Of a DNA stretch of 64,000 bases, positions 45,051 to 62,379 are shown piece by piece (the stretch's first letter is position 1; each line of letters starts with the position of its first letter). The DNA lies in NCBI GenBank assembly GCA_026991535.1, contig JALXBH010000058.1, positions 13,037-77,036 on the forward strand, given 5' to 3'. This stretch comes from Calditrichia bacterium (lineage in GTDB: Bacteria > Calditrichota > Calditrichia > Calditrichales > J004). Under the pieces are notes generated by a model. That model did no database searches and had not been told where the DNA came from. It saw nothing but the letters and a program-made list of their open reading frames with translations. A program made the position numbers and the translations under genes.

Positions 45051-45620
45051 ATGTTTCTGCTAATAGCCGTTACGGCTGTCATTGTGTTAGGCCTGCCCCT
45101 CGTGCTATTGATCAGGCGTTTGGAAATAGCGGGCGGCGGGAACCCGCTTGTTATGGCGGCGTCCGTTCTGTTCCTACTGGGCGGCATGTTGCTTACCCAT
45201 TCAACGATTTCATCCCTGCGTTATATGGAAGCCTACCGTAACTGGCAGACCGTTAAGGGGCGTGTTGTCGAGGCGGAAATTGCCGGCAAACGGGCGTTTC
45301 ATCCCAAAGTAAAATATACATTTCACTGGCAGGACAGCAGCTATAGCAATATCTCCGATCTGGATGCGCCGGGATTCGGCACCAAGGCGGCCCGTTTTCA
45401 GGTGGCGCGGGAGATGCTTAAAAATATCCATGTGGGCGACACCATCGATGTGTGGGTTAATCCCCGCAACCCACGGGAAAACACCCTCGTCAACCATCCC
45501 CGCTGGAACAGCTTTATGCAATACGGCGCGGGAATTTTTTTCAGCGCCGTGGCCCTGGCTTTTCTGATAAGCAGCCTGTTACAGCGCCTAACCCTTAATA
45601 AAGAGACCCGCAAGCAATGA
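45051..45620 (+). CDS. DUF3592-like membrane protein
   Basis: Two N-terminal TM segments and one C-terminal TM segment surround a beta-rich core (WQTVKGRVVEAEI...HPKVKYTFHWQDSSYSN...GDTIDVWVNPRNPRENTL), as is typical of DUF3592. Confidence 0.6.
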   Translation: MFLLIAVTAVIVLGLPLVLLIRRLEIAGGGNPLVMAASVLFLLGGMLLTHSTISSLRYMEAYRNWQTVKGRVVEAEIAGKRAFHPKVKYTFHWQDSSYSNISDLDAPGFGTKAARFQVAREMLKNIHVGDTIDVWVNPRNPRENTLVNHPRWNSFMQYGAGIFFSAVALAFLISSLLQRLTLNKETRKQ

Positions 45621-50263: not shown

Positions 50264-51433
50264 TTACTTATTTCCCTTAGCACGGTTGTGCGTCTTGCAA
50301 AGCATTTGGCAGTTGGATATATCGCTGCCTCCTCCTTTACTCCAGGCTGTAACGTGGTCGGCGTCCATTTCCTTAAATGCATAAATCCTTGTCTTATTAG
50401 CATCATGCCCCAGGGCACAAAGCGGACAATTGGATATTCCTTTTTCTTTAGCCTCTTTCGTTTGTTGTTTATAGACCGCCTTTTTAGTCGCTTCGTCAAA
50501 TACACGGACATTGAGCAATTTCGTTTCCTTCTCCCCGTCCAATATATACTCAAAAATTCCTTTGCGATTTTTGACATAAGGATCGGCATAAAGCGTCTGC
50601 ACGCGCCCGGAAACCTTTTTCGGATCATACGACTTTTTGTGATATGCTTCGTAAAGCCGTCCCCATTCCAAACCACACATCTCGCTTTCGACATCCTCAA
50701 ACACGGCAGAAACCCAATCTATCACCGTATCAAAATAATTTCTCACCTCGTTAATATTGTCATCATAGCGATGCGCGCTCATATATTCGCCGATATTGCC
50801 CTTACTGACCCAATCAAGCGCTGTATGCCAGAAATCCTGTCGTACGGCGCTTCCTTTGATATATGCGTTCCATTTTTGGATGTTTGGATTTTGACTGTTG
50901 CTAAACCACTCTTTTCCCCTGGTAACAAACGGACCGGAATAGACGGCGTTTAAAAGTTCCTGCTCGTTAAGCGGTACGCCGACAATGTTTATCGTTTTGA
51001 ACCACTCTTTGATTTCACTTTCCGTTCCTTCGCATTCATAAATCAAAAGTTTTGTTTCTAAAATTTTTTGCTTTTTGTCTTGCGCCATGCCGCTAAAATA
51101 CTGCTGATTACCGTTTGCGTCGCTGATGGCAAATTTTCCGGTTACAAACCTGCCCAAACTGGTAATGCGTTGCTGGCCGTCAAGCACTTCAAACTTGTTA
51201 TCGCCCACTTTGTTAAAGTAAATAAGCCCCAACGGATACCCCTTCACAACCGAGTCAATCACCGCCTGTTCTCTTTTTCCCCCGTCGGATGCGTAAATGT
51301 AGTTGCGCTGATACTCCGGCTGGATGGTGAGTTTGCCGGCAAGCCCGAAAAGCCCTTTGCCTTCCAGTTCGCTGTACACGAATCCTTCACAAATGTCTTT
51401 AATCGTAATATTGGTTTTCAGTGTAGTTTTCAT
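50264..51433 (-). CDS. DUF262 (ParB-like/GmrS-like NTPase-nuclease fold) protein fused to a C-terminal HNH endonuclease
   Basis: DUF262 hallmarks [11 protein letters not shown] and [15 protein letters not shown]-terminal His-Me finger with zinc ligands CPLCA...[35 protein letters not shown]-rich. The start lies 2 nt after the MTase stop, with AAGGAA inside the MTase 3' end. Confidence 0.85.
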
Positions 51434-51435
51434 GG

Positions 51436-52650
51436 TTATTTCCTTTTGTGCCTGATAAGTACACGAGCATACATTTGAATGTAATAGTTGCCATCAACAA
51501 TGTAATAGGTTTTGTCTTTCAATGGTGAACTGACTTTTATTGCAGCACCGTCATTGAGTTTTGTAACATCACTTCTTTTTCCATTTGCACTGACTTGAAT
51601 TTGGGACGGATATACTTTGTTTGCGGCGCCAAACCATGTTTTGGTTAAACCCAAAATCTCAAACTGCTGCGGATTGTATTTATCCAGGAAACTAATCGGC
51701 ACACCCATCACGCCATCATAATCACTTGGGATGGCATTTGTGTAGGGTACTTCAATGGCTTCGTAGTTGTCGTATTTTTTATAGGCGTTTGGATTTTTTT
51801 GGATTTGTTTATTGAATTTAAGATTATCTGCCATGCTCATCAAAGGTAAGGGCTGATGGCGCCGGCCATGGTCAAGATTGGTATACCAACAAACGCCTGG
51901 CACACGATTAACTTTTACACCATCTTTTTCCCGTTCAAATTTATAAGTGTCAGCATATACAAAAGTTTCTGGAACCATAAAATACATACCCTTATTGAAA
52001 TTTGTAGCTCCCAACCACATTTTATTATTCTTTAACTTTGGGAATATCTCTTTATAAGTAATCGCGTTCATATTGCCGATAATCAAAAATTTCTTCTTAT
52101 ACTCAAATAGTTGCATCACATACTCGCGGAAAAGGGAAAACGGCGGATTGGTCACAACAATGTCGGATTGTTTTAGTAGCTCTATACACTCTTCGCTGCG
52201 AAAATCACCGTCTCCTTTTAAAGGCGCCCATTCGTTGTTTTTATTGGCCTTAAGTTGGTCGGCAATATCATCCAGATTAAATTCACCGTCTTTATTGAAG
52301 TCGCCCACTTCGTTGATTATAAAACGATTTGCTGTTTCTTTCGGTCGGCCTTTTGGCGTCGGCAGGCTTTCGTCATCTCCAAACAGGCTCAGCTGTGTGT
52401 TGGCAATCGGCGAGGGCTTGTAACTGGTTGTGATCAGACGCTTCAATCCCAACTTTTCAAAATTCAACACAAAATAGCGGAAGAAATTGCTCTCGTACGG
52501 ATCATCGCAATTGCAATAGACCGTCTTTCCCCTAAAAGTGTCAGGATCATACTCGAAATAGGCCTCCACCTCTATTTGAATATCCTGATACTGGGTGTAA
52601 AACTCGTCGTTTTTAGCCGCTTTCGCTTTTGTAAGGTTTTTATTTGCCAT
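51436..52650 (-). CDS. N6-adenine DNA methyltransferase, EcoRI-methylase-like family
   Basis: N-terminus [12 protein letters not shown]...[20 protein letters not shown]. Catalytic motif [16 protein letters not shown] (NPPF implies an exocyclic-amine, most likely m6A, MTase). AT-rich. Confidence 0.8.
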
Positions 52651-52702: not shown

Positions 52703-52854
52703 CGTGCATTGTTCTTTTACGCCAAAATGGGCGGATAAGAATATTTATTTAAATATTTTCTTTACGGTTAACTTAAAAATTCTATATGAAACTTACAATT
52801 TAGACAATGGCCATAGCGTATTGCATAATCTCTGAGCTTCGGAAATATAAAAAA

Positions 52855-52880
52855 CCCCGCGTTTGGGGCGCGGGGCTTTT
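52855..52880. terminator. bidirectional terminator downstream of the molybdoenzyme gene; right border of the AT-rich island
   Basis: Stem ccccgcg (52855-52861) pairs with cgcgggg (52869-52875), flanked by A6 upstream and T4 downstream. Confidence 0.7.
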
Positions 52881-52891
52881 GTGTATTGGCT

Positions 52892-55741
52892 TTATTTCAG
52901 ATAAAAGGTCTCTTCCACCGGCCGTACCGGGCGGCCGAACCACAGCGGCCGGCGCAGGCCGTTTGGCCCCGGAGCGGGACGGGTCATCCCCAGCCACTTT
53001 TTGTATACCTGAAAGGATTTCTCCGTATCCACGGCCACGTCGCCATAGCGATCACCGGGATGCGCCTTTTCGATGCGTACCTTCTGATGCCAGCAATGCA
53101 TGCCGCTGATGGGATCGGGGTGCACCTCGTGGGTGATGTTCTGGTGCACGCCGCCGTCGCTCCAAAAGATGCGGCTGCTGTCGGGGTCGCTGCTCTTGTA
53201 GGGTCGTATGCCGTCGATGACCTTCATCTTCCACACACTGCCTTCCTGCTCCAGCTTAACCGTGTTGCTGGCCCAGCGGTTACCCGTTTTGTCTTCCGGG
53301 CGGCGCCAGCGGCCGATATGGTGCGAACAGGCCACCACGCCGGGCTTCATCCCCTCGGTGACCCATACCTTGTCCACAAAATAACCGATACCCGTATTAA
53401 CCCTTACCAGGTCATCGCTGCGGATACCCAGCCGTTCGGCGTCGCTGGTGTGCATCCAGATGGGATTGCGGTTGGATATCTCCGTCAGCCACTTGGCGTT
53501 CCCCGAGCGGGAGTGGATCAGCGTGGGCAGGCGGAAGGTGGGCACCAGCGGAAAATCGCCCTTGTCCCGTTCCATGTTTTCCTCATGGATGTGGCTTTTG
53601 ATATATTTGGGGATTTTGTACTCCGGCCATTTCCAGTCCACGATGGTTTGCGAGTAAAACTCCTGCCGCCGCGAGGGGGTGGGGAAGCCGACGCGCGGCT
53701 TGCCGTCGATCATTACGCCGATAACCTTGCCCGCCTTGACCACGGAACCGTCGTCTCGGATTTCGGCGCCCTTCATCTCTTCCTCGCTCAACACATCCAT
53801 GTGTTTGGCATAGGCGTTGGTTTCCAGCTCCACCGCGCCATAGGTGCGCATATATTCCAGCGGCGTCTTGCCCTCGGCCTCCGCCTTTTTCACCAGGGCC
53901 GGGATGCGCTCAAAGGCGTATTGGTAATACTCCTCGATGGTCATCTTTTCCCCTTCGCGGTAGGGCGACATAAAATGCTTTTTGATGCCCAGGCTGCCGT
54001 CGGGATCGATACGCCAGCTCAGCTCAATCCAGAACTCATCCTCTTCCCACACCTCGCCGGGGTTGGCCTGGTAGGTAAACTCCACCGGGTCGCCCAGGCG
54101 GCGGCGCGCCTCGCGCAATACCGGCTGGCGGAAGCCCATCCACTTGCCGGAGTGGGTTTCGTAGCTGATGATGTCATGCCGTTCGTTGCTGTGCCCCATG
54201 GGCAGCACATAATCGGCATAATAGGCCGTTTCGTTCCAGGTGGGCGTCAGGGCGATGTGCATGCCAATCTTTTCGGCGTCGCGCAATACCTCGATCCAGC
54301 TAAAGCCGTCGGGATAGGTCCACACCGGGTTAAAGACGCGGGTAAAGTAAACATCCAGCTTGCCGCGGCCTTCCTTTAAAAAGTGGGGCAGCAGAAAGCT
54401 CATTTCAAAAAAGGCCAGCGGGTAGTCGTTGGGGAAGTGCAGTTCGTTCCAAAAGGTTTGCGCCGCCGGTTTGTGGGGCACGGTGGGCTTAAACTTGTTC
54501 CAGGCGCTGGGCGAGGTACCGCCCACGGTGCCCACGCTGCCGGTAAGCACGCTCAAAAAGTGCAGGCAGCGGGCCACGGCCCAGCCGCCCAGGTTGCCGC
54601 TGCCGGCGCTGCGCCAGTTGTGGGTGGCAAAACGTTCGCCCGCCTCGCCGATTTTCCGGGCCACCTCCACGATGGTCGCGGCGTCGATCTGCGCCTCGGC
54701 GGCGGCAAATTCCGGCGTGTATTCGGCATAGGCCTCGCGCATGGCCGCGATATAATTTTCAAAGGTGACTTCCCTTTGCGGGTGCTCCTTTTGCAGGTAT
54801 TCCCGCCAGTTGGTCCAGTCGCGCAGGAACTTCTCGTTATACAGCCCCTCGTCGAGGATCACCCTGGCCATGGCCAGCAACACCGCCGCCTCGCTGCCGG
54901 GGTAGGTGGGCAGCCAGTGGTCGGCCATGGAGGCCGTGTTGGAAAGCCGGGGGTCCATCACCGCCAATTGGGCGCCCTTCATCATCCCTTCGATGATGCG
55001 CTGGGCGTGGGGATTAAAGTAGTGTCCCGATTCCAGATGGGCGGAGATCAGTAAAATGAACCTGGTGTTGGCGTAATCCGGCGAAGGCCGGTCATAGCCA
55101 TGCCACAGGGCATAACCGAAGCGCGCTCCGGAGGAACAGACGTTGGTATGGCTGTTATGACCGTCCACATTCCAGGACTGCAGCACCCGGTCGATATAGC
55201 CCTCATGACCGGGACGGCCCACATGATAGGCGATTTCGTTGTTACGTTTTTCCCGCAGGGCCTTGCGCAGACGGGCGGCGATGTCATCCAGCACCTCGTC
55301 CCAGCTTACCCGTTCCCACTCGCCGGAGCCCCGTTCTCCCTTGCGCCTCAGCGGATACAGGATGCGGTCGGGGTCGGTGATCTGGTTGATGGTGGCCGGT
55401 CCCTTGGCGCAGTTGCGTCCCCTGCTGCCGGGGTGATAGGGGTTGCCCTCGAATTTGCGGATTTTCATCGTCTCTTTGTCGATGTAGCTTAACAGACCGC
55501 AGCCGGCCTCGCAGTTAAAGCAGTTGGTGGGCACAATCATATATTTTCGCTTTTTCCGCTCATGATTGCTGGTGGCTTCGTACTCCTCCCAGTCGTTCCA
55601 TTTCTCGGGCGGCGGGTAGCTGTTTTGCGTGCCGGGTTCGCTCACACGCTCAAGGCCTTCCGCCTCATCATGCAATTGCGGAATCAGCCGCAGCTTTTCC
55701 GCGATGGTTTCAATCAGTCCGGGTTTATGACGGGTTGCCAT
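52892..55741 (-). CDS. molybdopterin (bis-MGD) oxidoreductase catalytic subunit, Psr/Phs/Soe-type, no Tat signal
   Basis: FS0 cluster motif CFNCEAGCGLLSY...GRNCAKG about 75 aa from the N-terminus. MopB body (ISTN-like and HP... blocks). 949 aa. The N-terminus MATRHKPGLIETIAEKLRL lacks an RRxFLK motif and a hydrophobic h-region. Strong RBS GGGAGGAAAG. Confidence 0.9.
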   Translation of the reverse strand: MATRHKPGLIETIAEKLRLIPQLHDEAEGLERVSEPGTQNSYPPPEKWNDWEEYEATSNHERKKRKYMIVPTNCFNCEAGCGLLSYIDKETMKIRKFEGNPYHPGSRGRNCAKGPATINQITDPDRILYPLRRKGERGSGEWERVSWDEVLDDIAARLRKALREKRNNEIAYHVGRPGHEGYIDRVLQSWNVDGHNSHTNVCSSGARFGYALWHGYDRPSPDYANTRFILLISAHLESGHYFNPHAQRIIEGMMKGAQLAVMDPRLSNTASMADHWLPTYPGSEAAVLLAMARVILDEGLYNEKFLRDWTNWREYLQKEHPQREVTFENYIAAMREAYAEYTPEFAAAEAQIDAATIVEVARKIGEAGERFATHNWRSAGSGNLGGWAVARCLHFLSVLTGSVGTVGGTSPSAWNKFKPTVPHKPAAQTFWNELHFPNDYPLAFFEMSFLLPHFLKEGRGKLDVYFTRVFNPVWTYPDGFSWIEVLRDAEKIGMHIALTPTWNETAYYADYVLPMGHSNERHDIISYETHSGKWMGFRQPVLREARRRLGDPVEFTYQANPGEVWEEDEFWIELSWRIDPDGSLGIKKHFMSPYREGEKMTIEEYYQYAFERIPALVKKAEAEGKTPLEYMRTYGAVELETNAYAKHMDVLSEEEMKGAEIRDDGSVVKAGKVIGVMIDGKPRVGFPTPSRRQEFYSQTIVDWKWPEYKIPKYIKSHIHEENMERDKGDFPLVPTFRLPTLIHSRSGNAKWLTEISNRNPIWMHTSDAERLGIRSDDLVRVNTGIGYFVDKVWVTEGMKPGVVACSHHIGRWRRPEDKTGNRWASNTVKLEQEGSVWKMKVIDGIRPYKSSDPDSSRIFWSDGGVHQNITHEVHPDPISGMHCWHQKVRIEKAHPGDRYGDVAVDTEKSFQVYKKWLGMTRPAPGPNGLRRPLWFGRPVRPVEETFYLK

Positions 55742-55825
55742 CTTTCCTCCCTATTTCATTGGCCATGCCGGGCATGGTTTGGTTTTTGTTTCAGATTAAA
55801 TTCTCCCGGGGTCAAGCGCATGCCC

Positions 55826-57445
55826 TTAGCTCAGGTCTATCAGTTGCGGCACGCGCACCCACAGATGCTCGGTGATGTATAAGCCGGTCAGAACCAGAAC
55901 GGCGGCCACGCTCACCATCCAGCCGGGTCCCCACAGCAACAGGGCCAATGGAAAAACGTTGCCCAGAAAAACAGCGCCCAGCCAAAACAGGGGGGCGTAC
56001 GGGCCCGCCGCTATCATATGCGCCGCTTTTTTGGCGTCCTCCGTGGGGTGGGTGATGGTCAGCTCGGAAAAGATAATCAACATGTTTACCACCAGTGCTC
56101 CGGTCAGGATAGCCTGGATAAAGGCATTCCATTCCGCCGTACCGTGAAGGGAAGCGGCCAGGGCAAAGAGGGCGCCGCCGCCCACAAAGGGATGGGCCAG
56201 CATGTGCAGGATCAGCGCCGGACTTTGCCAGAAGTCACGTCCCTTGGCCTGGGCAAAGAGGAAGGCGGTATAAACGGCCACCACCAGGGCAAACAGTCCG
56301 CTGCCCCACATGGCGATGGGCTCCAGGGCGCTCAGGCCGAGAAAGCGGGCCGCCAGCCACAGGGTGACCAGACCGCCAAAGACGGTGATGGCGTAGCCGC
56401 CGCGCACCAGCCAGGAATTCCATTGCGGCCGCAGAATCACATAGGCAAAACGGGTCGGTTTATCCAGGTCTTTAACCAGCAGCGCGCCGGTCAGCCCCAG
56501 AAAAATCAGTCCGCTGATCAAACTGCCATAGAGCAGGGTATCACCCACGGGGATGCCGAAGAGCAGGGCCAAAAAAGGCAACAGTACGGCGCCGGCGGCA
56601 ATGGCCTTGGTCATCACGTAGGCCGATACCTCCCAGCCCCACAGCACCCCCTTGGAAGGGGCGTCGTAGGCGCGGCGGATAGTGCGTTTTAAAATGCCGT
56701 CCGCTTTTTGGATGGTGTTGTCGCCGGTGGTGATCACTTTCTCCGGCATCTCTTTAAGATTGGCCAGTTCCTTGTACATATCCACGGGGCTGCTTTTGGC
56801 GATAAGTTCCTCGGCAAACTTGGCGTAATGCCCCACGCCGCTGCTTTGTGAACTCCACATATAGCTGTCCGATGTCTCCGTCTCGGAAGGGGTGAGTGAA
56901 GCTTCGTCGGCATCGATATAGAAAAGCTTGGGGCGGGTGCCTTTTTCCGGCTTGCGCACCTTAACCGCCTCACGGGAGAGCAATTGGGCGATCTCCGTGG
57001 CCGGGTTATCCATGTCTCCGGAAATGATGGCATGTTCCGGGCACACATTGACGCAGGCCGGTTCCAGTCCGATATCTATGCGGTGGGCGCAGTAGTTGCA
57101 CTTGGCCGCCGTATGGGTTACCGGGTCTATATAAAGGGAGTTGTAGGGGCAGGCCTGCATACAGGATTTGCAGCCGATACAGCGCCGGTTATCAAAGTCC
57201 ACAATACCGTCATCGCGGATATGCAGGGCCTCCACGGGACAAATCTCCACGCAGGGCGCATCCTCACAGTGGTTGCAGCGCATCACGGAAAACAGCCGCC
57301 GGGTGTTGGGGTATTCGCCCTTTTCCACATACTTCACCCAGGTGCGGTTTACCCCGATAGCCACATCGTGCTCGGACTTACAGGCCACGGTGCAGGCGTG
57401 GCAACCGATACATTTACGGTTATCTATAATAAAGCCGTAATTCAT
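55826..57445 (-). CDS. fusion of a 4x[4Fe-4S] ferredoxin subunit (PsrB/SoeB-like) and an NrfD/PsrC-like 8-TM quinone-interacting subunit
   Basis: Four Cys clusters: CIGCHACTVAC, CNHCEDAPCVEIC, CIGCKSCMQAC and CNYCAHR...ACVNVC. A roughly 90-aa linker follows, then eight hydrophobic segments starting WGWEVSAYVMTKAIAAG (NrfD-like first helix). No signal peptide. Confidence 0.85.
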   Translation of the reverse strand: MNYGFIIDNRKCIGCHACTVACKSEHDVAIGVNRTWVKYVEKGEYPNTRRLFSVMRCNHCEDAPCVEICPVEALHIRDDGIVDFDNRRCIGCKSCMQACPYNSLYIDPVTHTAAKCNYCAHRIDIGLEPACVNVCPEHAIISGDMDNPATEIAQLLSREAVKVRKPEKGTRPKLFYIDADEASLTPSETETSDSYMWSSQSSGVGHYAKFAEELIAKSSPVDMYKELANLKEMPEKVITTGDNTIQKADGILKRTIRRAYDAPSKGVLWGWEVSAYVMTKAIAAGAVLLPFLALLFGIPVGDTLLYGSLISGLIFLGLTGALLVKDLDKPTRFAYVILRPQWNSWLVRGGYAITVFGGLVTLWLAARFLGLSALEPIAMWGSGLFALVVAVYTAFLFAQAKGRDFWQSPALILHMLAHPFVGGGALFALAASLHGTAEWNAFIQAILTGALVVNMLIIFSELTITHPTEDAKKAAHMIAAGPYAPLFWLGAVFLGNVFPLALLLWGPGWMVSVAAVLVLTGLYITEHLWVRVPQLIDLS

Positions 57446-57472
57446 AGCTCTTCCTTTTGTTAGGTTTGTTTT

Positions 57473-59218
57473 TTAAGACTCTTTTTCCGCCGGATTTTCC
57501 GTTAGGGGCGCGTCGCCGGACTTTGTTTGTTCCGCCGTCTTTTCCCGTTCCACGTTTTCCAGATAATGCTTTACGGCAGCCTTTTTGTTTAAAAAGAAGT
57601 TCGAAGCGCCCAGAAAATCATAATAACCGGTTCGCTTCATGGTGTCGCGCACGGGACCTTTCACATTGGTGAAATAGAATTCGATGCCGCGGTCTTTCAG
57701 GTTTTGGGTCAATTCATGCAATTCCAGATCGGCGGTGGCGTCGATATCATTAACGCTGCTGGCGTCAAAGATGACGGCCTTTACCGGTCTGCGGGCGTTC
57801 AAAATCTCCTCCTCCACAAAATCACGCAGGAAAGAGACGTTGGTAAAGGAGAGCGAAGCGTCGATGCGGAAGATGACCAGCCCCTCGATTTCCCGGGCTT
57901 CGGGGGCGCGCTTAAAATTGCGCAGGGTGTCCGTGCCGGGGATTTGCCCCATCTGGGCCATGTGCGGGTGGCTCATGCGCCGCAGGATGATGACCACCGA
58001 GGCGGCCATGCCCATTAAAATGCCATACTGTACGCCAAAAATGATGGTCGATAGAAAGGAAAAGATCAACACGAAAAAATCGTTGCGCTGGCAGCGGTAA
58101 AGACGCAGGGCTTCCCTGAAGTCGATGAGTTTGACTATGGCCACGATGATGATGGCCGCCAGAACCGCGTTGGGCAGATAGTAGAACAGGGGCGTAAGAA
58201 AAAGCAGGGTGGCTGCCAAAAACAGCGAGGTGAACAAGGCCGCAAACTGGCTTTGGGCCCCGCTTTGGGCGTTAACCGCCGTGCGGGAGAAGCTGCCCCC
58301 CATGGGATAGGCGCGAAACAGACCGGCCAGCATATTGGCCGAACCGATGGCCACCAGTTCCTGATTGGGATCAATGCGATACCGGTAGCGGGAGGCAAAT
58401 TTTTTACCCAGGGCCACCACCTCCATAAAGCTGATCATGGCCATGGTAAAGGCCAGCGGAATGAGGGACTCCACGGTTTCAAGTTCAAACGGTGGCACTT
58501 GAAAGGCGGGCAGACCGCGGGGAATATCACCCACCACGGACATGCCGTCCCGGTCGAAACGGAAATACCATACCAGCCCGGCCGTGAGGATTACCGCCAA
58601 CAGCGCCGCGGGCAGGCGGGGGTTGATCTTTTTGACCACATATAAAAACAGGATACTGCTCAGCCCCATCAACAGGGTGGGGATATGCGTTTCGGGTATC
58701 ATGACCATTATATCCCGTACGGCGTAAACCACCGACCCGCTGCGCGGCATGGCCACACCGAGGATATATCTCAATTGACTCAGGGAGATGATGATGGCCG
58801 CGGCGGAGATAAAGCCGCTCAGTACCGGATGGGAAAGGAAATTGACGATAAAGCCCATGCGTCCCAGGCCCAGCGCCATCTGGATCAGGCCAACCATCAG
58901 CGCGGTCAGGCCGGCCAGCATGATAAACTGGTTGCTGCCGGGAGCGGCCAGTAAACTGACACCGGTGACCAGCAAAATGGAATCGATGGCCACGGGGCCC
59001 ACGGAAAGATGGCGCGATGTGCCTAAAAAGGTATAGACGAACAGGGCCAGCATGGCGCCGTACAATCCGGCAATCGCCGGCATACCGGCCAGCATGGCGT
59101 AGGCCATACCCTGGGGAATGAGCATCACCGCCACGGTGAAACCGGCCAGCATATCCTGTTTCAGATTACGCCGGTCATAGGACGGTAACCAGGTGAGTAT
59201 CGGTAAATATTTTTTCAT
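57473..59218 (-). CDS. SulP family anion permease with C-terminal STAS domain
   Basis: WLPSYDRRNLKQDMLAGFTVAVMLIPQGMAYAMLAG is the canonical SulP N-terminus. C-terminal STAS domain (VIFDASSVNDIDATADLELHELTQNLKDRGIEFYFTNVKGPV). Confidence 0.9.
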   Translation of the reverse strand: MKKYLPILTWLPSYDRRNLKQDMLAGFTVAVMLIPQGMAYAMLAGMPAIAGLYGAMLALFVYTFLGTSRHLSVGPVAIDSILLVTGVSLLAAPGSNQFIMLAGLTALMVGLIQMALGLGRMGFIVNFLSHPVLSGFISAAAIIISLSQLRYILGVAMPRSGSVVYAVRDIMVMIPETHIPTLLMGLSSILFLYVVKKINPRLPAALLAVILTAGLVWYFRFDRDGMSVVGDIPRGLPAFQVPPFELETVESLIPLAFTMAMISFMEVVALGKKFASRYRYRIDPNQELVAIGSANMLAGLFRAYPMGGSFSRTAVNAQSGAQSQFAALFTSLFLAATLLFLTPLFYYLPNAVLAAIIIVAIVKLIDFREALRLYRCQRNDFFVLIFSFLSTIIFGVQYGILMGMAASVVIILRRMSHPHMAQMGQIPGTDTLRNFKRAPEAREIEGLVIFRIDASLSFTNVSFLRDFVEEEILNARRPVKAVIFDASSVNDIDATADLELHELTQNLKDRGIEFYFTNVKGPVRDTMKRTGYYDFLGASNFFLNKKAAVKHYLENVEREKTAEQTKSGDAPLTENPAEKES

Positions 59219-59576
59219 GCTTCCCTTGTAAAACGTAAAAGTAAAAGGAAGCCTACGTTGATGGTGGTGGGTTTGCCCTTCCGGTTCTGGAGGCTGGAAA
59301 GGCTTGACCCAATATAGCAGGCTGAGCCATTGTTGGCAAACTAAAAATGGCTAATTCTTTTTCCCGGCGTAAATAGTTCTATTTTGTGGCTAGGGCGGCC
59401 TTTATTGTAGAATAGTCCCCACCTTTTTTGATTAATATTCTCCATTTTACGGCCACCGGGCTAAAAAAACGGCGTTTTAGGCTGCCCCGCGCCGCTGGCA
59501 CCATCTTTGTACTAAGGGGCAGTGTTCTAAAAGATAAACCGAACAGACAGGCTAAAAGCCGGTAAAGGAGGCAGGC

Positions 59577-59775: not shown

Positions 59776-61092
59776 ATGGAAAAGGCTCAAAAACATATTG
59801 TGATCATCGGCGCCGGTTTTGCGGGAGTCTATGCCGCGCGGAATCTGGCCCGGATGAATAAGGATTTCAGGATTACCCTGGTGGACCGGCATAATTACCA
59901 CCTGTTTCAGCCCCTGTTGTATCAGGTGGCCATGGGGCATCTTTCACCGGAAAGTATCGCCTATCCTATCCGGGCCATCTTTTCCGGCTATAAAAATGTT
60001 TCGGTTACCAAGGGTATCGTAAGCGGCATCGATCTGGAGGCCGGGACCGTTCAGATGCGCAACCAGACCCTGCACTACGACGAACTGATCGTGGCCACGG
60101 GGGTTAAGCCCAATTATTTCGGTCACAACGAATGGGAGCGCTACGCGCCGGGAATAAAAACGATTCAGGACGCTCTGTACATGCGTCTGCGCATTTACAA
60201 TATTTTTGAGATGGCGGAAAGAAATAAAGCGCTGAAGGATGAGGCGCCGCCGCTGAACTTTGTGGTGATCGGCGGTGGTCCCGCCGGGGTGGAGCTTTCC
60301 GGCGCCCTGGCCGAGCTGAGCCGTAAGGTGCTGAAAAAAGACTTCCGCCATATCCGTCCGGATAAGGCCCGTATCTACCTGGTGGAGGCCCTCGATCATA
60401 TACTGGGCGGTTTTCCGCCGGAACTGGAAAAATCCGCTCTTAAATCCCTGGCCCGGCTGGGCGTGGAAGTGAAAACCGGTCACCGGGTGACCGATATCCG
60501 GGGCGACCGGGTGATGTTGCAATCGCCGGAAGGGGAAAAGGTTATTGAGAGCCAGGCTGTTTTGTGGACGGCGGGTGTGCAGGCCTCCTACTCCCGTGAA
60601 CTTTTTCTGCAGGCGGATCAACTGGAGTTTGACCGCATGGGACGGATAAAGGTTAATCCTGACCTGAGCGTGCCCGGTTATGAAAATGTGTACGTGGTTG
60701 GCGATCTGGCCTTTGTGCCGCGGGAAGACGGGCGTCCCCTGCCGGGTGTGGCTTCGGTGGCCATTCAGGAAGGGGCCTACGCGGCCCGGGCCATTATGGA
60801 GCGCTACAGCGGCCGTAAGGCACGTCCCTTCCGTTTTTTCAGCAAGGGCCGCATGGCGGTGATCGGCCGTAACGCGGCCGTCGTGGAATTGGGCCCGCTG
60901 AAAATGAGCGGTTTTCCGGCCTGGCTGATCTGGGTGTTTATCCACATCGCCTATCTGATAAGCTTTCAAAACCGGCTTACGGTGATGCTGAATTGGGCCT
61001 GGTACTATTTCCGGCAAAAGGTTTCGGCGCGCATCGTTTTCGGTTGCGAGGATAAAGATATTAATCATCCTGTTCCCAAATGTCCGGAATAG
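59776..61092 (+). CDS. ndh: type II NADH:quinone oxidoreductase (NDH-2)
   Basis: Two dinucleotide folds, HIVIIGAGFAGV and FVVIGGGPAGVELSGAL. YVVGDLA motif. C-terminal amphipathic/hydrophobic tail (FPAWLIWVFIHIAYLISF). Confidence 0.9.
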   Translation: MEKAQKHIVIIGAGFAGVYAARNLARMNKDFRITLVDRHNYHLFQPLLYQVAMGHLSPESIAYPIRAIFSGYKNVSVTKGIVSGIDLEAGTVQMRNQTLHYDELIVATGVKPNYFGHNEWERYAPGIKTIQDALYMRLRIYNIFEMAERNKALKDEAPPLNFVVIGGGPAGVELSGALAELSRKVLKKDFRHIRPDKARIYLVEALDHILGGFPPELEKSALKSLARLGVEVKTGHRVTDIRGDRVMLQSPEGEKVIESQAVLWTAGVQASYSRELFLQADQLEFDRMGRIKVNPDLSVPGYENVYVVGDLAFVPREDGRPLPGVASVAIQEGAYAARAIMERYSGRKARPFRFFSKGRMAVIGRNAAVVELGPLKMSGFPAWLIWVFIHIAYLISFQNRLTVMLNWAWYYFRQKVSARIVFGCEDKDINHPVPKCPE

Positions 61093-61166
61093 GAATAACG
61101 GCCCCTTCTTTCCGTATCAAACCGGTTTTTTGCGGTGGAACGGACAAGGGACTGAAAGGACAAACA

Positions 61167-61355
61167 ATGTTAATAGACGTAGTGTGCGGCATGCACCTGG
61201 ATGAGGACGCCGGGGAACTCGTCTTTGTGGAATACAAGGGCCGGGAGTATGCCTTTTGCACACAATTGTGCAAGGTGCAGTTTGAATCGGATCCCGAAAA
61301 ATACAGCTCTGATGAATGGCGTGAATTTCTGGAGGAACGGGAGAACAGGGATTAG
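61167..61355 (+). CDS. YHS-domain mini-protein (62 aa)
   Basis: Internal ATG at 61167 (AAAGGA upstream): MLIDVVCGMHLDEDAGELVFVEYKGREYAFCTQLCKVQFESDPEKY, followed by an acidic tail. Confidence 0.7.
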   Translation: MLIDVVCGMHLDEDAGELVFVEYKGREYAFCTQLCKVQFESDPEKYSSDEWREFLEERENRD

Positions 61356-61407
61356 TTCGCCGACCATCTTTTAAACGACAATGATCCCAAATATGGAGGA
61401 GAAGCTT

Positions 61408-62112
61408 ATGTCCGAGAAGCTTATTTGGTTTGTATGGTCTTTGGCACTGATCGGTGTCTGGCTGCTGGTTTACGTGCTCTATAAAAACGGCCGTAAACGC
61501 ATGCTGTGGGCCAGCCTGTACACCATGCCCTTTGGTCTGACCGAACCCATCTTTGTGCCCGAATACTGGAATCCGCCATCATTGTTTGATCTGGCGCAAA
61601 GAACCGGCTTTGATATCGAAAGCCTGATCTTTTGCTTCGGTATCGGCGGTCTGGGAGTGGTTTTGTACGACTTTATTTTCAAGGTACGGCATGAGTCGAT
61701 GAGCGTGGAAGAGAAACATCACAGCCGGCACCGCTTTCACCTGTGGACCTTGCTTTCGCCGATCATTCTGTTTCCGATCCTCTATTTCGCCGTAAGCTGG
61801 AACGTGATCTATACGGCCACGCTGACCATGTTTGTGGCCGCCCTGGCCGCGCTTTGGTGCCGCCCCGACCTGAAGGGCAAAATATGGGTCAGCGGCGTCA
61901 TCTTTACCCTTTTTTACCTGGTCTATTTTCTCTCGTTAATCGCCGTCTCACCGGGTTATGTGGAACGGGTATGGACCCTGACGGCCATCTCGGGCATTGA
62001 GATTCTTGGCATTCCCGTGGAAGAGCTTCTGTTTGCCTTTACCTTCGGCATGTTGTGGGCCAGCTATTATGAACATCTGACCTGGCATAAAATCAAAAAA
62101 GCCGGGGCATAA
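61408..62112 (+). CDS. 7-TM membrane protein, possibly lycopene-cyclase-domain family
   Basis: ATG at 61408 follows GGAGGAG. The motif GIPVEELLFAFTFGMLW resembles the PxEE motif of CrtYc/Yd-type cyclase domains. The assignment is weak. Confidence 0.35.
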   Translation: MSEKLIWFVWSLALIGVWLLVYVLYKNGRKRMLWASLYTMPFGLTEPIFVPEYWNPPSLFDLAQRTGFDIESLIFCFGIGGLGVVLYDFIFKVRHESMSVEEKHHSRHRFHLWTLLSPIILFPILYFAVSWNVIYTATLTMFVAALAALWCRPDLKGKIWVSGVIFTLFYLVYFLSLIAVSPGYVERVWTLTAISGIEILGIPVEELLFAFTFGMLWASYYEHLTWHKIKKAGA

Positions 62113-62127
62113 AAAAAGGAGGATGTT

Positions 62128-62379
62128 ATGAGCAATATCAGAGTCAACACCCTGACTTTCGCCACCTTTGTCGCTTTCAGCTTCATCGTGTGTGTGAGCA
62201 CGGCGCTTATCCTGCCGGCGGGTTATACCATGGCCCCTTTTCTGGAAAGTATATTACCGGGTTTTAAGTGGATCAGCGTATCGGCATTTTTTCTGGGCCT
62301 GGTGGAAAGCGCCATCATCGGCGCCTATATCGGACTGGTGTTCACCCCGATCTATAATTTCTTTAACCGGGGCAACTAA
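62128..62379 (+). CDS. small 2-3-TM membrane protein, unknown function
   Basis: AGGAGG RBS. 83 aa, strongly hydrophobic (FATFVAFSFIVCVSTALIL; FFLGLVESAIIGAYIGLVF). Confidence 0.5.
   Translation: MSNIRVNTLTFATFVAFSFIVCVSTALILPAGYTMAPFLESILPGFKWISVSAFFLGLVESAIIGAYIGLVFTPIYNFFNRGN

What the first reader, a model, noticed from the sequence alone, without database searches (positions are those of the whole stretch)
52892..59218. Tat-less molybdoenzyme with a fused FeS/NrfD subunit and a SulP permease: a cytoplasm-facing SoeABC-like module with a B-C fusion
Seen in the sequence. Three minus-strand genes are spaced 27 and 84 nt apart, each with a strong RBS. They encode a SulP-STAS permease, a single 539-aa polypeptide and a 949-aa MopB catalytic subunit. 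The 539-aa polypeptide joins a four-cluster ferredoxin (four CxxCxxCxxxC-type motifs) to an eight-helix NrfD/PsrC-like domain. The catalytic subunit begins MATRHKPGLIETIAEK..., has no twin-arginine motif and no hydrophobic leader, and places its first Cys cluster about 75 residues in. The FeS/NrfD protein also lacks a signal peptide.

Established knowledge. Psr/Phs/Ttr-type complexes export the A and B subunits via a Tat signal on A. The characterised exception is SoeABC, the sulfite:quinone oxidoreductase of purple sulfur bacteria. Its roughly 108-kDa A subunit and its B subunit lack signal peptides and face the cytoplasm.

Inference. Size, the missing Tat signal and the adjacent sulfate-type permease fit a Soe-like cytoplasmic sulfite-oxidising or other oxyanion-converting complex, with SulP moving the product or substrate. 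The covalent B-C fusion and the gene order (sulP, BC, A) differ from the soeABC arrangement as I remember it. The alternatives are a cytoplasmic polysulfide/thiosulfate-type reductase, or SulP acting in molybdate supply.
Basis: partly seen in the sequence, partly recalled or inferred. Interest (0 to 1): 0.6.

Follow-up and report, generated by a model that had tools for sequence, protein, structure and literature searches.

The report
Two-gene cytoplasmic sulfite-oxidising molybdoenzyme operon
This operon encodes an inward-facing membrane molybdenum enzyme whose iron-sulfur and membrane-anchor subunits are one protein, plus an anion permease; green sulfur bacteria carry the same two-gene enzyme next to their sulfur-oxidation genes, it probably turns sulfite into sulfate, and it is widespread and already noticed but has never been tested biochemically.

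Summary
Three minus-strand genes lie between a promoter-like site and a strong terminator: sulP-STAS (581 aa), a four-cluster ferredoxin fused to an eight-helix NrfD domain (539 aa), and a Tat-less 949-aa Mo-bisPGD subunit. Charge bias puts the FeS domain in the cytoplasm (16 K+R on its side of the membrane, 0 on the other).

The fusion is not unusual. It is the standard form of a very large, highly conserved family. In 87 loci from Calditrichota, Bacteroidota, Chlorobiaceae, Acidobacteriota, Planctomycetota, Chloroflexota, Actinomycetota and haloarchaea, 73 show the fused gene directly upstream of A and none shows separate B and C genes.

The catalytic subunit is 68-70% identical to the Chlorobium protein encoded directly upstream of TauE-dsrE-rhd-tusA-dsrNCA. 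That is the two-gene "PSRLC3", inferred in the literature to oxidise sulfite. Duval et al. (2008) described the same type as a Tat-less "Unk" subgroup with a 60-kDa B subunit.

Recurrent neighbours are persulfide dioxygenase-rhodanese, SulP, TauE, TusA and DsrE. They support sulfite:quinone oxidation with export of the anion product.

I could not test orthology to the characterised SoeABC. Verdict: an ordinary new member of a known, uncharacterised kind.

The parts
59311..59339 (-). Sigma-70-like promoter candidate (TTGCCA-17-TATATT with a TG extension), 92 nt upstream of the sulP ATG
   Evidence: This is a consensus match only: the number of such matches in the region does not exceed the shuffled expectation.
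57473..59218 (-). SulP-family anion permease with a C-terminal STAS domain (581 aa, 64 kDa, pI 9.3). Proposed exporter of the sulfate formed.
   Evidence: Pfam Sulfate_transp 2.7e-110 plus STAS. TIGR00815 scores 484 bits against a cut-off of 380. SulP genes lie within 7 kb of the enzyme genes in 25 of 87 related loci.
56876..57445 (-). BC protein, residues 1-190: four-[4Fe-4S] ferredoxin (PsrB/TtrB-like) domain with no signal peptide
   Evidence: Fer4_11. 16 Cys in four groups. PsrB 2vpw_B matches at E=7e-50. An in-frame stop lies 10 codons upstream of the start.
56654..56875 (-). BC protein, residues 191-264: poorly conserved linker between the FeS and membrane domains, ending in a K/R-rich stretch
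   Evidence: Alignment A2 shows low conservation in 215-257. Low pLDDT. 6 K+R in the last 30 residues.
55826..56653 (-). BC protein, residues 265-539: NrfD/PsrC-type eight-helix quinone-interacting membrane domain, predicted N-in/C-in
   Evidence: Pfam NrfD. Helices and a 16:0 K+R bias. Family-wide bias of 17.7 versus 0.5. Model pLDDT about 90 with Foldseek hits to ActC and to PsrC 2vpw_C.
52892..55741 (-). Catalytic Mo/W-bisPGD subunit A (949 aa, 109 kDa), Tat-less
   Evidence: Pfam domains. No Tat motif and a stop four codons upstream. More than 8000 homologues, with the top 120 at 71% identity or more. 0 of 85 family members have a Tat-like N-terminus.
55409..55522 (-). FS0 [4Fe-4S] motif of A: C74-x2-C77-x3-C81-x29-C111
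   Evidence: These columns are invariant in alignment A1.
55136..55138 (-). Cys202 in the motif HNSHTNVCSSGAR: predicted molybdenum ligand
   Evidence: In the HMMER alignments it lines up with the Cys in ArrA (SHSSVCAEAHK) and in PsrA (SVSLCTAPRE). That those Cys residues are the Mo ligands comes from the literature (PMC2500031 Fig. 1c legend; Jormakka 2008 from memory). Nearly invariant in the family.
52850..52880 (-). Intrinsic terminator (12-bp stem, 7 G-C pairs, T-run) 12 nt after the stop codon of A

Best explanation
sulP-BC-A is one transcription unit in a Calditrichota genome. It encodes the two-gene, cytoplasm-facing complex iron-sulfur molybdoenzyme known as PSRLC3 in green sulfur bacteria and as the Tat-less 'Unk' subgroup of Duval et al. 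2008.

**Proposed mechanism.**
1. Sulfite made in the cytoplasm is oxidised to sulfate at the Cys202-ligated Mo-bisPGD centre of subunit A. Possible sources are persulfide dioxygenase, Dsr and organosulfur catabolism.
2. The two electrons pass through FS0 and the four [4Fe-4S] clusters of the ferredoxin domain.
3. [quoted passage not shown]
4. The SulP-STAS permease exports the sulfate.

**Shown here:** gene structure, cofactor-binding motifs, absence of export signals, the topology bias, family membership, and the conserved fusion and neighbourhoods.

**Inferred:** the substrate, the direction of catalysis, the quinone as acceptor, and the direction and substrate of SulP transport.
For: **Architecture and orientation.**
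- Domains and cysteine motifs.
- No Tat signal and no possible upstream extension.
- 0 of 85 family A subunits and 0 of 44 BC proteins carry Tat-like motifs.
- K+R is 16:0 in the window protein and 17.7:0.5 across 44 homologues, which places the FeS domain and the even-numbered loops in the cytoplasm.
- The NrfD fold is confirmed.

**Family.**
- The GTDB scan found at least 600 carriers. Chlorobium and other Chlorobiaceae proteins are 68-70% identical to A.
- 73 of 87 loci have fused BC directly upstream of A, and none has separate B and C genes.
- All 120 best BC homologues are fused (529-580 aa).
- The NJ tree puts A in a tight Tat-less clade (bootstrap 77). That clade sits inside a bootstrap-100 clade that is separate from the Psr/Phs-like proteins.

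**Function from context.**
- In Chlorobium sp. N1 the pair is followed by TauE, DsrE2, rhodanese, TusA, DsrN, DsrC and DsrA.
- Across the 87 loci, neighbours within 7 kb are PDO-rhodanese fusion 28, SulP 25 (12 directly adjacent), YeeE-like pair 7, TusA 7, DsrE 6 and TauE 5.

**Literature.**
- PSRLC3 is two genes (PMC5473276) and is inferred to be a sulfite oxidase (PMC9324843, citing Frigaard & Bryant 2008 and Gregersen 2011).
- The Dahl 2013 abstract, as quoted in PMC8232776, states that SoeABC genes are universally present in purple and green sulfur bacteria.
- SoeC is predicted to be inverted in the membrane (PMC8076601).

**Operon.** A promoter-like site and a terminator bracket the three genes.
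Against: - No member of the fused family has been assayed.
- I could not compare A with the characterised SoeA of Allochromatium vinosum or Aquifex aeolicus. Three weak hints suggest classic SoeABC may be a different clade:
  - JGI names for the A homologues are generic COG names, whereas a Psr/Phs homologue carries what I recognise, from memory, as the KEGG orthology name.
  - KEGG-based SoeC is reported only from Proteobacteria, Aquificae and Clostridia (PMC8076601).
  - The published conserved SoeC residue pattern found no ungapped match in this NrfD domain.
- The window itself holds no PDO, SQR, Dsr, TusA or DsrE gene, so the local source of sulfite is unknown.
- About 70% of related loci have no SulP within 7 kb. 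In one locus SulP sits beside Moco-biosynthesis genes, which is compatible with molybdate uptake.
- The nearest relatives outside the core clade are Tat-dependent enzymes of unknown function.
Confidence: 0.6

Rival explanations
1. The complex works physiologically as a cytoplasm-facing reductase. Quinol-derived electrons reduce a sulfur compound inside the cell (polysulfide/persulfide, thiosulfate, tetrathionate or elemental sulfur), and SulP or other carriers supply or remove the anion.
For: The best-scoring solved and curated relatives are reductases: ArrA and PsrA, PsrB, and the TtrB, PhsA and DmsA models, all far below their cut-offs. The Aquifex enzyme now called SoeABC was first described as a sulfur reductase (PMC10100899 table; PMC8076601). 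Thiosulfate-uptake-type YeeE-like genes, rhodaneses and TusA/DsrE sulfur carriers are frequent neighbours.
Against: The family is common in aerobic heterotrophs: Flavobacteriaceae, Saprospiraceae, Rhodococcus, Thermomicrobium and haloarchaea. The most frequent neighbour is an O2-dependent, sulfite-forming persulfide dioxygenase. In Chlorobium the pair abuts the oxidative dsr cluster and a TauE-type exporter. From general bioenergetics, a cytoplasmic quinol-driven reduction would dissipate rather than build a proton gradient.
Confidence: 0.15
2. The enzyme is a cytoplasmic oxidoreductase for a non-sulfur oxyanion or another substrate (arsenite, selenite, tellurite, an organic compound). The sulfur-gene neighbours reflect co-regulation under general stress.
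For: Duval et al. placed the 'Unk' clade closest to respiratory arsenate reductase and left its function unknown (PMC2500031). ArrA is the best PDB hit. No curated family model claims the protein.
Against: No ars, arr or selenium-metabolism genes were seen in any of the neighbourhoods examined. The recurrent neighbours are all sulfur-trafficking genes or sulfur-anion transporters.
Confidence: 0.07
3. The enzyme assignment is right, but SulP is not a product exporter. It imports sulfate for assimilation or molybdate for cofactor supply, or it is merely co-transcribed.
For: Only 25 of 87 loci have SulP within 7 kb. In L003 SulP is followed by MoeA, MoaC and a MobA-like gene. L089 also carries a second Sulfate_transp gene with a weak MOT1 (molybdate transporter) hit. 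From general knowledge, characterised bacterial SulP members mostly act in uptake.
Against: SulP sits within 70 nt of the enzyme genes on the same strand in 12 loci, at either end of the pair. In Chlorobiaceae the equivalent position is taken by TauE/SafE, a sulfite/sulfonate exporter family. In Flavobacteriaceae SulP is paired with the sulfite-forming PDO-rhodanese gene. The window SulP has no MOT1 hit at E<=0.01.
Confidence: 0.25

Closest known systems
PSRLC3 (polysulfide-reductase-like complex 3) of green sulfur bacteria (Frigaard & Bryant 2008; cited in PMC5473276, PMC9324843, PMC6338057)
   Same: Two genes in the order BC then A. A is Tat-less and 68-70% identical to the window protein. 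The fused FeS-NrfD protein is 517-535 aa. Both fall in the same FCB subclade in the tree. Its function is inferred, not measured: cytoplasmic sulfite oxidation.
   Different: In Chlorobiaceae the pair is followed by TauE/SafE and the dsrE-rhd-tusA-dsrNCAB genes. Here it is preceded by sulP, and no dsr or other sulfur-oxidation genes lie in the 64-kb window.
'Unk' clade, Tat-less subgroup with a large B subunit (Duval et al. 2008, PMC2500031)
   Same: The description matches exactly: B before A, no Tat signal on A, no separate C gene, and a tetracubane subunit of about 60 kDa (59.0 kDa here).
   Different: Duval et al. read the subgroup as lacking a membrane anchor. Here the extra mass of the 59-kDa B protein is an eight-helix NrfD domain, so the anchor is fused rather than absent.
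SoeABC sulfite:quinone oxidoreductase (Allochromatium vinosum, Dahl 2013; Aquifex aeolicus, Boughanemi 2020; as summarised in PMC8076601)
   Same: Cytoplasm-facing A and B without signal peptides. A carries an N-terminal FS0 cluster site and B carries four clusters. The anchor is an NrfD-type protein inverted relative to Psr. The sulfur-oxidation gene context is similar.
   Different: SoeABC is three separate polypeptides encoded A-B-C. Here B and C are one polypeptide and the order is BC-A. I could not measure sequence identity to a characterised SoeA, and indirect hints point both ways (see the full report).
PsrABC polysulfide reductase of Thermus thermophilus (PDB 2VPW-2VPZ) and the Psr/Phs/Ttr/Arr periplasmic enzymes
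   Same: The same three modules and cofactor set. PsrB matches at E=7e-50 and PsrA at 8e-34. The PsrC fold matches the model.
   Different: Those enzymes are Tat-exported and face the periplasm. A scores far below every curated cut-off and lies on a separate, long-branched clade. A is roughly 90-190 residues longer than the 860-aa Psr/Phs-named homologue P0177 and the solved PsrA chain (765 residues).
Tat-dependent B-C-A(-TorD) relatives (Azoarcus sp. KH32C pAZKH, Sulfurovum mangrovi plasmid, P0126, P0171)
   Same: Nearest relatives outside the core clade, at 32-47% identity. The B, C, A gene order matches the order of the fused form.
   Different: They have a Tat signal on A, separate B and C genes and a TorD-type chaperone. 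Their function is unknown.

Membership tests
PSRLC3 / Tat-less 'Unk' subgroup (two-gene cytoplasmic CISM) | Two structural genes: a large FeS subunit (about 60 kDa) directly upstream of the molybdopterin subunit, with no separate anchor gene | tested here: met
   BC is 539 aa (59.0 kDa) and lies 84 nt upstream of A. 73 of 87 related loci have the same layout.
PSRLC3 / Tat-less 'Unk' subgroup (two-gene cytoplasmic CISM) | The catalytic subunit lacks a Tat signal | tested here: met
   No motif, no hydrophobic stretch, and a stop four codons upstream. 0 of 85 family members have one.
PSRLC3 / Tat-less 'Unk' subgroup (two-gene cytoplasmic CISM) | Orthology of A to the Chlorobiaceae protein | tested here: met
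   68-70% identity over the full length to four Chlorobiaceae loci. Same clade in the NJ tree.
PSRLC3 / Tat-less 'Unk' subgroup (two-gene cytoplasmic CISM) | Association with cytoplasmic sulfite-generating sulfur oxidation (Dsr in green sulfur bacteria). This is contextual, not strictly defining. | tested here: inconclusive
   Present in Chlorobium. PDO-rhodanese is a neighbour in 28 of 87 loci. None was found in this 64-kb window, and the rest of the genome is not visible.
SoeABC sulfite:quinone oxidoreductase | Signal-less A with N-terminal [4Fe-4S] site and Cys-ligated Mo-bisPGD; signal-less four-cluster B | tested here: met
SoeABC sulfite:quinone oxidoreductase | NrfD/PsrC-type eight-helix anchor oriented so that A and B face the cytoplasm | tested here: met
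   Positive-inside bias of 16:0 in the window protein and 17.7:0.5 in the family. Fold confirmed. This is a prediction only.
SoeABC sulfite:quinone oxidoreductase | Three separate subunits encoded soeA-soeB-soeC | tested here: not met
   B and C are one ORF and the order is BC-A. No unfused case occurs among the 87 loci or the 120 best BC homologues.
SoeABC sulfite:quinone oxidoreductase | Sequence orthology to Alvin_2491 (D3RNN8) or aq_1234 | not testable with these tools
   No characterised SoeA sequence could be retrieved. It is absent from PDB, from NCBIfam and from the plasmid collection. The single genome scan kept only the 80 closest loci.
SoeABC sulfite:quinone oxidoreductase | Sulfite-dependent quinone reduction | not testable with these tools
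   This needs a biochemical assay.
Periplasmic Psr/Phs/Ttr/Arr reductases | Tat signal on A and periplasmic A/B | tested here: not met
Periplasmic Psr/Phs/Ttr/Arr reductases | Score above the curated family cut-off, or placement inside the clade | tested here: not met
   PhsA 171 bits against a cut-off of 694, TtrA 119 against 1750, ArrA 115 against 1600. A lies on a separate bootstrap-100 clade.
SulP/SLC26 anion transporters | Sulfate_transp membrane domain plus a C-terminal STAS domain | tested here: met
   Pfam. TIGR00815 scores 484 bits against a cut-off of 380; the DauA and BicA equivalogs fall below their cut-offs.

The most novel reading that the evidence does not exclude
The fused two-gene enzyme may be a family distinct from classic three-subunit SoeABC, sharing only a distant ancestor and a convergent inward orientation. 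On this reading it is the main, never-characterised cytoplasmic sulfite dehydrogenase of the FCB group, Acidobacteriota, Planctomycetota, Chloroflexota, Actinomycetota and haloarchaea. In aerobic heterotrophs it would be the missing last step of the SQR-persulfide dioxygenase pathway, with SulP or TauE as dedicated sulfate exporters.
Probability: 0.4. Interest if true: 0.55.

Novelty: new member of a known kind. Interest (0 to 1): 0.3.

Why it matters
This is one more copy of a very common enzyme, so the locus adds little by itself. The value lies in what the check exposed.

- **An untested family.** At least 600 species-level genomes across about ten phyla and haloarchaea carry this family, conserved at 55-75% identity. 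Its function rests only on gene neighbourhood and analogy. It is annotated as 'formate dehydrogenase', 'polysulfide reductase NrfD' or a generic oxidoreductase. One review counted its anchor as absent, and KEGG-based surveys of SoeC miss it.
- **Consequence if it is a sulfite dehydrogenase.** Sulfite-to-sulfate capacity is under-called in metagenomic sulfur budgets for Bacteroidota, Calditrichota and others. The recurrent SulP/TauE linkage would then point to the so far poorly defined sulfate export step.
- **Testability.** Cultured, tractable carriers exist: Rhodococcus jostii RHA1 pRHL3, Thermomicrobium roseum, Chlorobium/Chlorobaculum, Flavilitoribacter and Lutibacter.

Tried and rejected
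1. **Retrieving a characterised SoeA for direct comparison.** All routes failed.
   - PDB has no Soe structure and NCBIfam has no Soe model.
   - The 50%-identity representative search gave mostly fragments, frameshifted junk and Tat+ relatives.
   - Cluster look-ups gave no organism names.
   - A search seeded with the cluster representative P0121 reached 'Alphaproteobacteria' MAGs, but these were again fused.
   - tblastn against plasmids, including loosened thresholds and a spread listing, found no soeABC. The Sulfitobacter hits are formate dehydrogenases. The Tritonibacter, Agrobacterium and Ralstonia hits are unrelated MopB types.
   - Paper supplements held no sequences.
2. **Matching the published conserved SoeC residues** (Aquifex numbering, PMC8076601) to the NrfD domain without gaps. 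There was no convincing register. This is weak evidence only.
3. **Moco riboswitch or other RNA element upstream.** None found.
4. **Upstream in-frame start adding a Tat leader.** Excluded by stop codons.
5. **AlphaFold model of BC to show the FeS domain docking on NrfD.** The FeS domain came out at pLDDT below 50, so only the membrane domain is usable.
6. **The divergent neighbour 59776-61092 as an SQR.** Not supported. It looks like an NDH-2-type flavoprotein with no curated match.
7. **The idea that the fusion is a local or rare event.** Rejected by the survey.


Full report
**1. Observation.**

- sulP, 57473-59218, 581 aa.
- A fused FeS/NrfD protein ('BC'), 55826-57445, 539 aa.
- The molybdopterin subunit ('A'), 52892-55741, 949 aa.

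The gaps between them are 27 and 84 nt.

Pfam assigns Sulfate_transp plus STAS to the first, Fer4_11 plus NrfD to the second, and Molybdop_Fe4S4, Molybdopterin and Molydop_binding to the third.

BC has 16 cysteines in four groups, which is enough for four [4Fe-4S] clusters. Eight hydrophobic helices follow them.

A has C74-x2-C77-x3-C81-x29-C111 as its first cluster site. It also has the motif HNSHTNVC(202)SSGAR. That cysteine aligns with the Cys in ArrA and PsrA that the literature identifies as the Mo ligand.

Neither protein can be extended upstream. An in-frame stop lies 4 codons before the ATG of A and 10 codons before that of BC. Neither N-terminus has an RRxFL-type motif or a hydrophobic leader.

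A promoter-like site (59339-59311) and a strong intrinsic terminator (52880-52850, 12 nt after the stop of A) bracket the three genes. No riboswitch or other Rfam element is present.

**2. Orientation.**

The loops on the side of the membrane that carries the FeS domain contain 16 Lys+Arg. The opposite loops contain none. Across 44 homologues the means are 17.7 and 0.5.

None of 85 family A subunits, and none of 44 BC proteins, has a Tat-like N-terminus.

By the positive-inside rule (established knowledge), the FeS domain, and hence A, face the cytoplasm. The NrfD domain is therefore inverted relative to PsrC, whose termini and partner subunits are on the P-side (PMC8076601).

An AlphaFold model of BC was confident only for the membrane domain (pLDDT about 90, eight long helices). 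That part matched ActC and PsrC. The FeS domain was not modelled usefully.

**3. What family it is.**

A has more than 8000 homologues. The best 120 are 945-996 aa and at least 71% identical, from Calditrichaeota, KSB1, SAR324 and Bacteroidota. The closest are 99% and 89% identical Calditrichaeota proteins, so the window is from a Calditrichota genome.

No curated NCBIfam model comes near its cut-off. The best solved relatives are ArrA and PsrA at only about 120 bits.

The 80 closest (59-89% identity) come from Calditrichota, many Bacteroidota, Chlorobiaceae, Acidobacteriota, Planctomycetota, Chloroflexota, Marinimicrobia and 'Deltaproteobacteria'.

The plasmid collection adds Thermomicrobium roseum (61%), Rhodococcus jostii RHA1 pRHL3 (56%) and five haloarchaeal megaplasmids (55-58%).

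I scripted a survey of all 87 loci whose A is at least 50% identical.
- 73 have a fused BC gene on the same strand upstream of A. Three of these have an inserted gene in between.
- None has separate B and C genes.
- The remaining 14 are truncated contigs, frameshifted MAG sequence, or three loci with no BC within 7 kb.

All 120 best homologues of BC are also fusions of 529-580 aa. The fusion is therefore the ancestral, invariant state of this family and not a feature of this locus.

**4. Identity with things already described.**

Four Chlorobiaceae loci carry the pair at 68-70% identity. In the cultured Chlorobium sp. N1 the order is BC (521 aa), A (955 aa), TauE/SafE, DsrE2, rhodanese, TusA, DsrN, DsrC, DsrA.

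This is the cytoplasmic 'polysulfide-reductase-like complex 3'.
- A Prosthecochloris genome note lists '2 genes encoding PSRLC3' among the dissimilatory sulfur-oxidation genes (PMC5473276).
- PSRLC3 is 'inferred to be sulfite oxidase', according to PMC9324843, which cites Frigaard & Bryant 2008 and Gregersen 2011. PMC6338057 also mentions it.

Independently, Duval et al. (2008, PMC2500031) defined an uncharacterised 'Unk' clade with B-C-A gene order. [quoted passage not shown] BC here is 59.0 kDa. Its extra half is the NrfD anchor, so the anchor is fused rather than missing.

My NJ tree (870 columns, 100 bootstraps) agrees with that picture.
- The Tat-less fused proteins form a tight clade (bootstrap 77).
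- That clade sits inside a bootstrap-100 clade whose other members include Tat-bearing proteins of 915-1123 aa.
- The whole clade is separated by a long branch from Psr/Phs-like sequences.
- The window protein groups with a Calditrichaeota MAG (100), then Bacteroidota (81), then Chlorobium (61).

The Tat+ relatives have separate B and C genes in the same B-C-A order, plus a TorD-type chaperone.

**5. Function.**

Nothing in this family has been assayed, so function is inferred from context. Within 7 kb of the enzyme genes, the 87 loci contain:

| Neighbour | Loci |
|---|---|
| Metallo-beta-lactamase/rhodanese fusion of the persulfide-dioxygenase type (sulfite- or thiosulfate-forming) | 28 |
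| SulP | 25 |
| YeeE/YedE-like pair | 7 |
| TusA | 7 |
| DsrE | 6 |
| TauE | 5 |

Regulators of the CsoR, ArsR and Rrf2 types also occur.

SulP is directly adjacent on the same strand in 12 loci. In six it lies upstream of BC, as here and in the closest relative L009. In six it lies just downstream of A. In Chlorobiaceae the downstream slot is occupied by TauE instead.

The simplest reading is that the enzyme removes cytoplasmic sulfite by oxidising it to sulfate, passes the electrons to the quinone pool, and leaves the anion to be exported by SulP or TauE. From established redox chemistry, sulfite/sulfate is a very low-potential couple, so quinone reduction is strongly favourable.

I put 0.6 on this overall. 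The architecture and orientation rate about 0.9, the substrate about 0.6, and the SulP role about 0.45.

The window itself contains no other sulfur-oxidation gene. Downstream of the terminator is an unrelated low-GC restriction-modification islet.

**6. Relation to characterised SoeABC: unresolved.**

I could not obtain a sequence of A. vinosum or A. aeolicus SoeA by any route (see 'tried and rejected').

*For orthology:*
- The Dahl 2013 abstract, as quoted in PMC8232776, says SoeABC genes are universally present in purple and green sulfur bacteria.
- The Ace Lake study assigned the MAG sequences to SoeA from a tree that also included PSRLC references (PMC9324843).
- The sizes match: 109 kDa for A, and 59 kDa for BC against 27+36 kDa for SoeB plus SoeC. 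The SoeB and SoeC sizes are from memory of Dahl 2013.
- Wells et al. report that the bSreA/SoeA lineage nearly collapses at 50% identity (PMC10100899). This family does the same.

*Against orthology:*
- JGI product names for about 35 A homologues are generic COG names, although a Psr/Phs homologue carries what I recognise, from memory, as the KEGG orthology name.
- KEGG-defined SoeC is reported only in Proteobacteria, Aquificae and Clostridia (PMC8076601).
- Wells et al. count only five archaeal bSreA/SoeA sequences, whereas five haloarchaeal plasmids alone carry this family.
- The conserved SoeC residue pattern found no register in this NrfD domain.

I therefore file the locus under PSRLC3/'Unk' (membership tested and met). 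It is 'Soe-like in mechanism', not a demonstrated SoeABC member. The three-subunit, A-B-C criterion is in any case not met.

**7. Verdict.**

The thing is not new, however. It is a further member of a widespread two-gene enzyme type recognised since 2008 and still uncharacterised.

Interest lies in the family rather than in this locus. The family is large, mis-annotated and overlooked by KEGG-based surveys, and it is directly testable in cultured carriers.

Noticed in passing
window 50264-52650 (-): A low-GC islet (0.42 against 0.50-0.60 around it) lies immediately downstream of the operon terminator. It holds an EcoRI-type adenine methyltransferase (404 aa, PF13651, 1.4e-131) followed by a GmrSD_N plus HNH nuclease (389 aa). 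It is probably a mobile restriction/defence insertion.
   Followed up: partly
window 59776-62379 (+): Divergent from sulP across a 557-nt spacer: an NDH-2-like flavoprotein (438 aa; Pyr_redox_2 plus a weak NDH2_C hit; no curated family; not an SQR), overlapped by a YHS-domain protein, then a lycopene-cyclase-domain membrane protein and a DUF5676 protein. Any link to the operon is unknown.
   Followed up: partly
L005 9793-10962; L008 10032-11192; L089 2216-3301: An Mrp/NBP35-type Fe-S carrier ATPase gene overlaps or abuts the 3' end of A in Rhodococcus jostii RHA1 and Natrinema, and lies nearby in an Alphaproteobacteria MAG. It may be a dedicated Fe-S maturation factor. It is absent from the window.
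   Followed up: no
L089 14868-15797; L090 9945-10919: A NarJ/TorD-family chaperone gene (PF02613) lies downstream of A in two 'Alphaproteobacteria' MAGs that have the Tat-less fused enzyme. This suggests a cofactor-insertion chaperone is kept even without Tat export.
   Followed up: no
P0126, P0171, P0140; L006 5790-10163; L007 4284-9444: A sister group of Tat-dependent enzymes (915-1123 aa) has separate B and C genes in B-C-A order plus TorD, found in Azoarcus and Sulfurovum plasmids. Its function is unknown. It probably corresponds to the Tat+ 'Unk' clade of Duval 2008. The Sulfurovum copy is split into two overlapping ORFs, a likely frameshifted pseudogene.
   Followed up: partly
P0124, P0125, P0128 (representative proteins): Divergent Tat-less paralogues at 41-47% identity. 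In P0124 and P0125 the FS0 cysteines and/or the HTNxCS molybdenum-ligand motif are altered. They may be cofactor-less or re-purposed derivatives.
   Followed up: no
L001 7570-7950; L010, L036, L053 (about 2-kb gaps): In a few relatives an extra gene sits between BC and A: a PDDEXK_3 protein in L001 and unexamined ORFs in the others. This breaks the otherwise tight BC-A coupling.
   Followed up: no
L058 4240-4467 and 12329-12424; L030; L065: Three loci have A but no BC within 7 kb. L058 also carries short duplicated fragments of A, and L030 contains a run of N. These could be assembly artefacts or rearrangements.
   Followed up: partly
window 45617-48577 (+): A 986-aa ORF whose translation reads like a DnaQ-type exonuclease domain fused to a DinG-family helicase. 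This is judged from the sequence only and was not scanned against any library.
   Followed up: no
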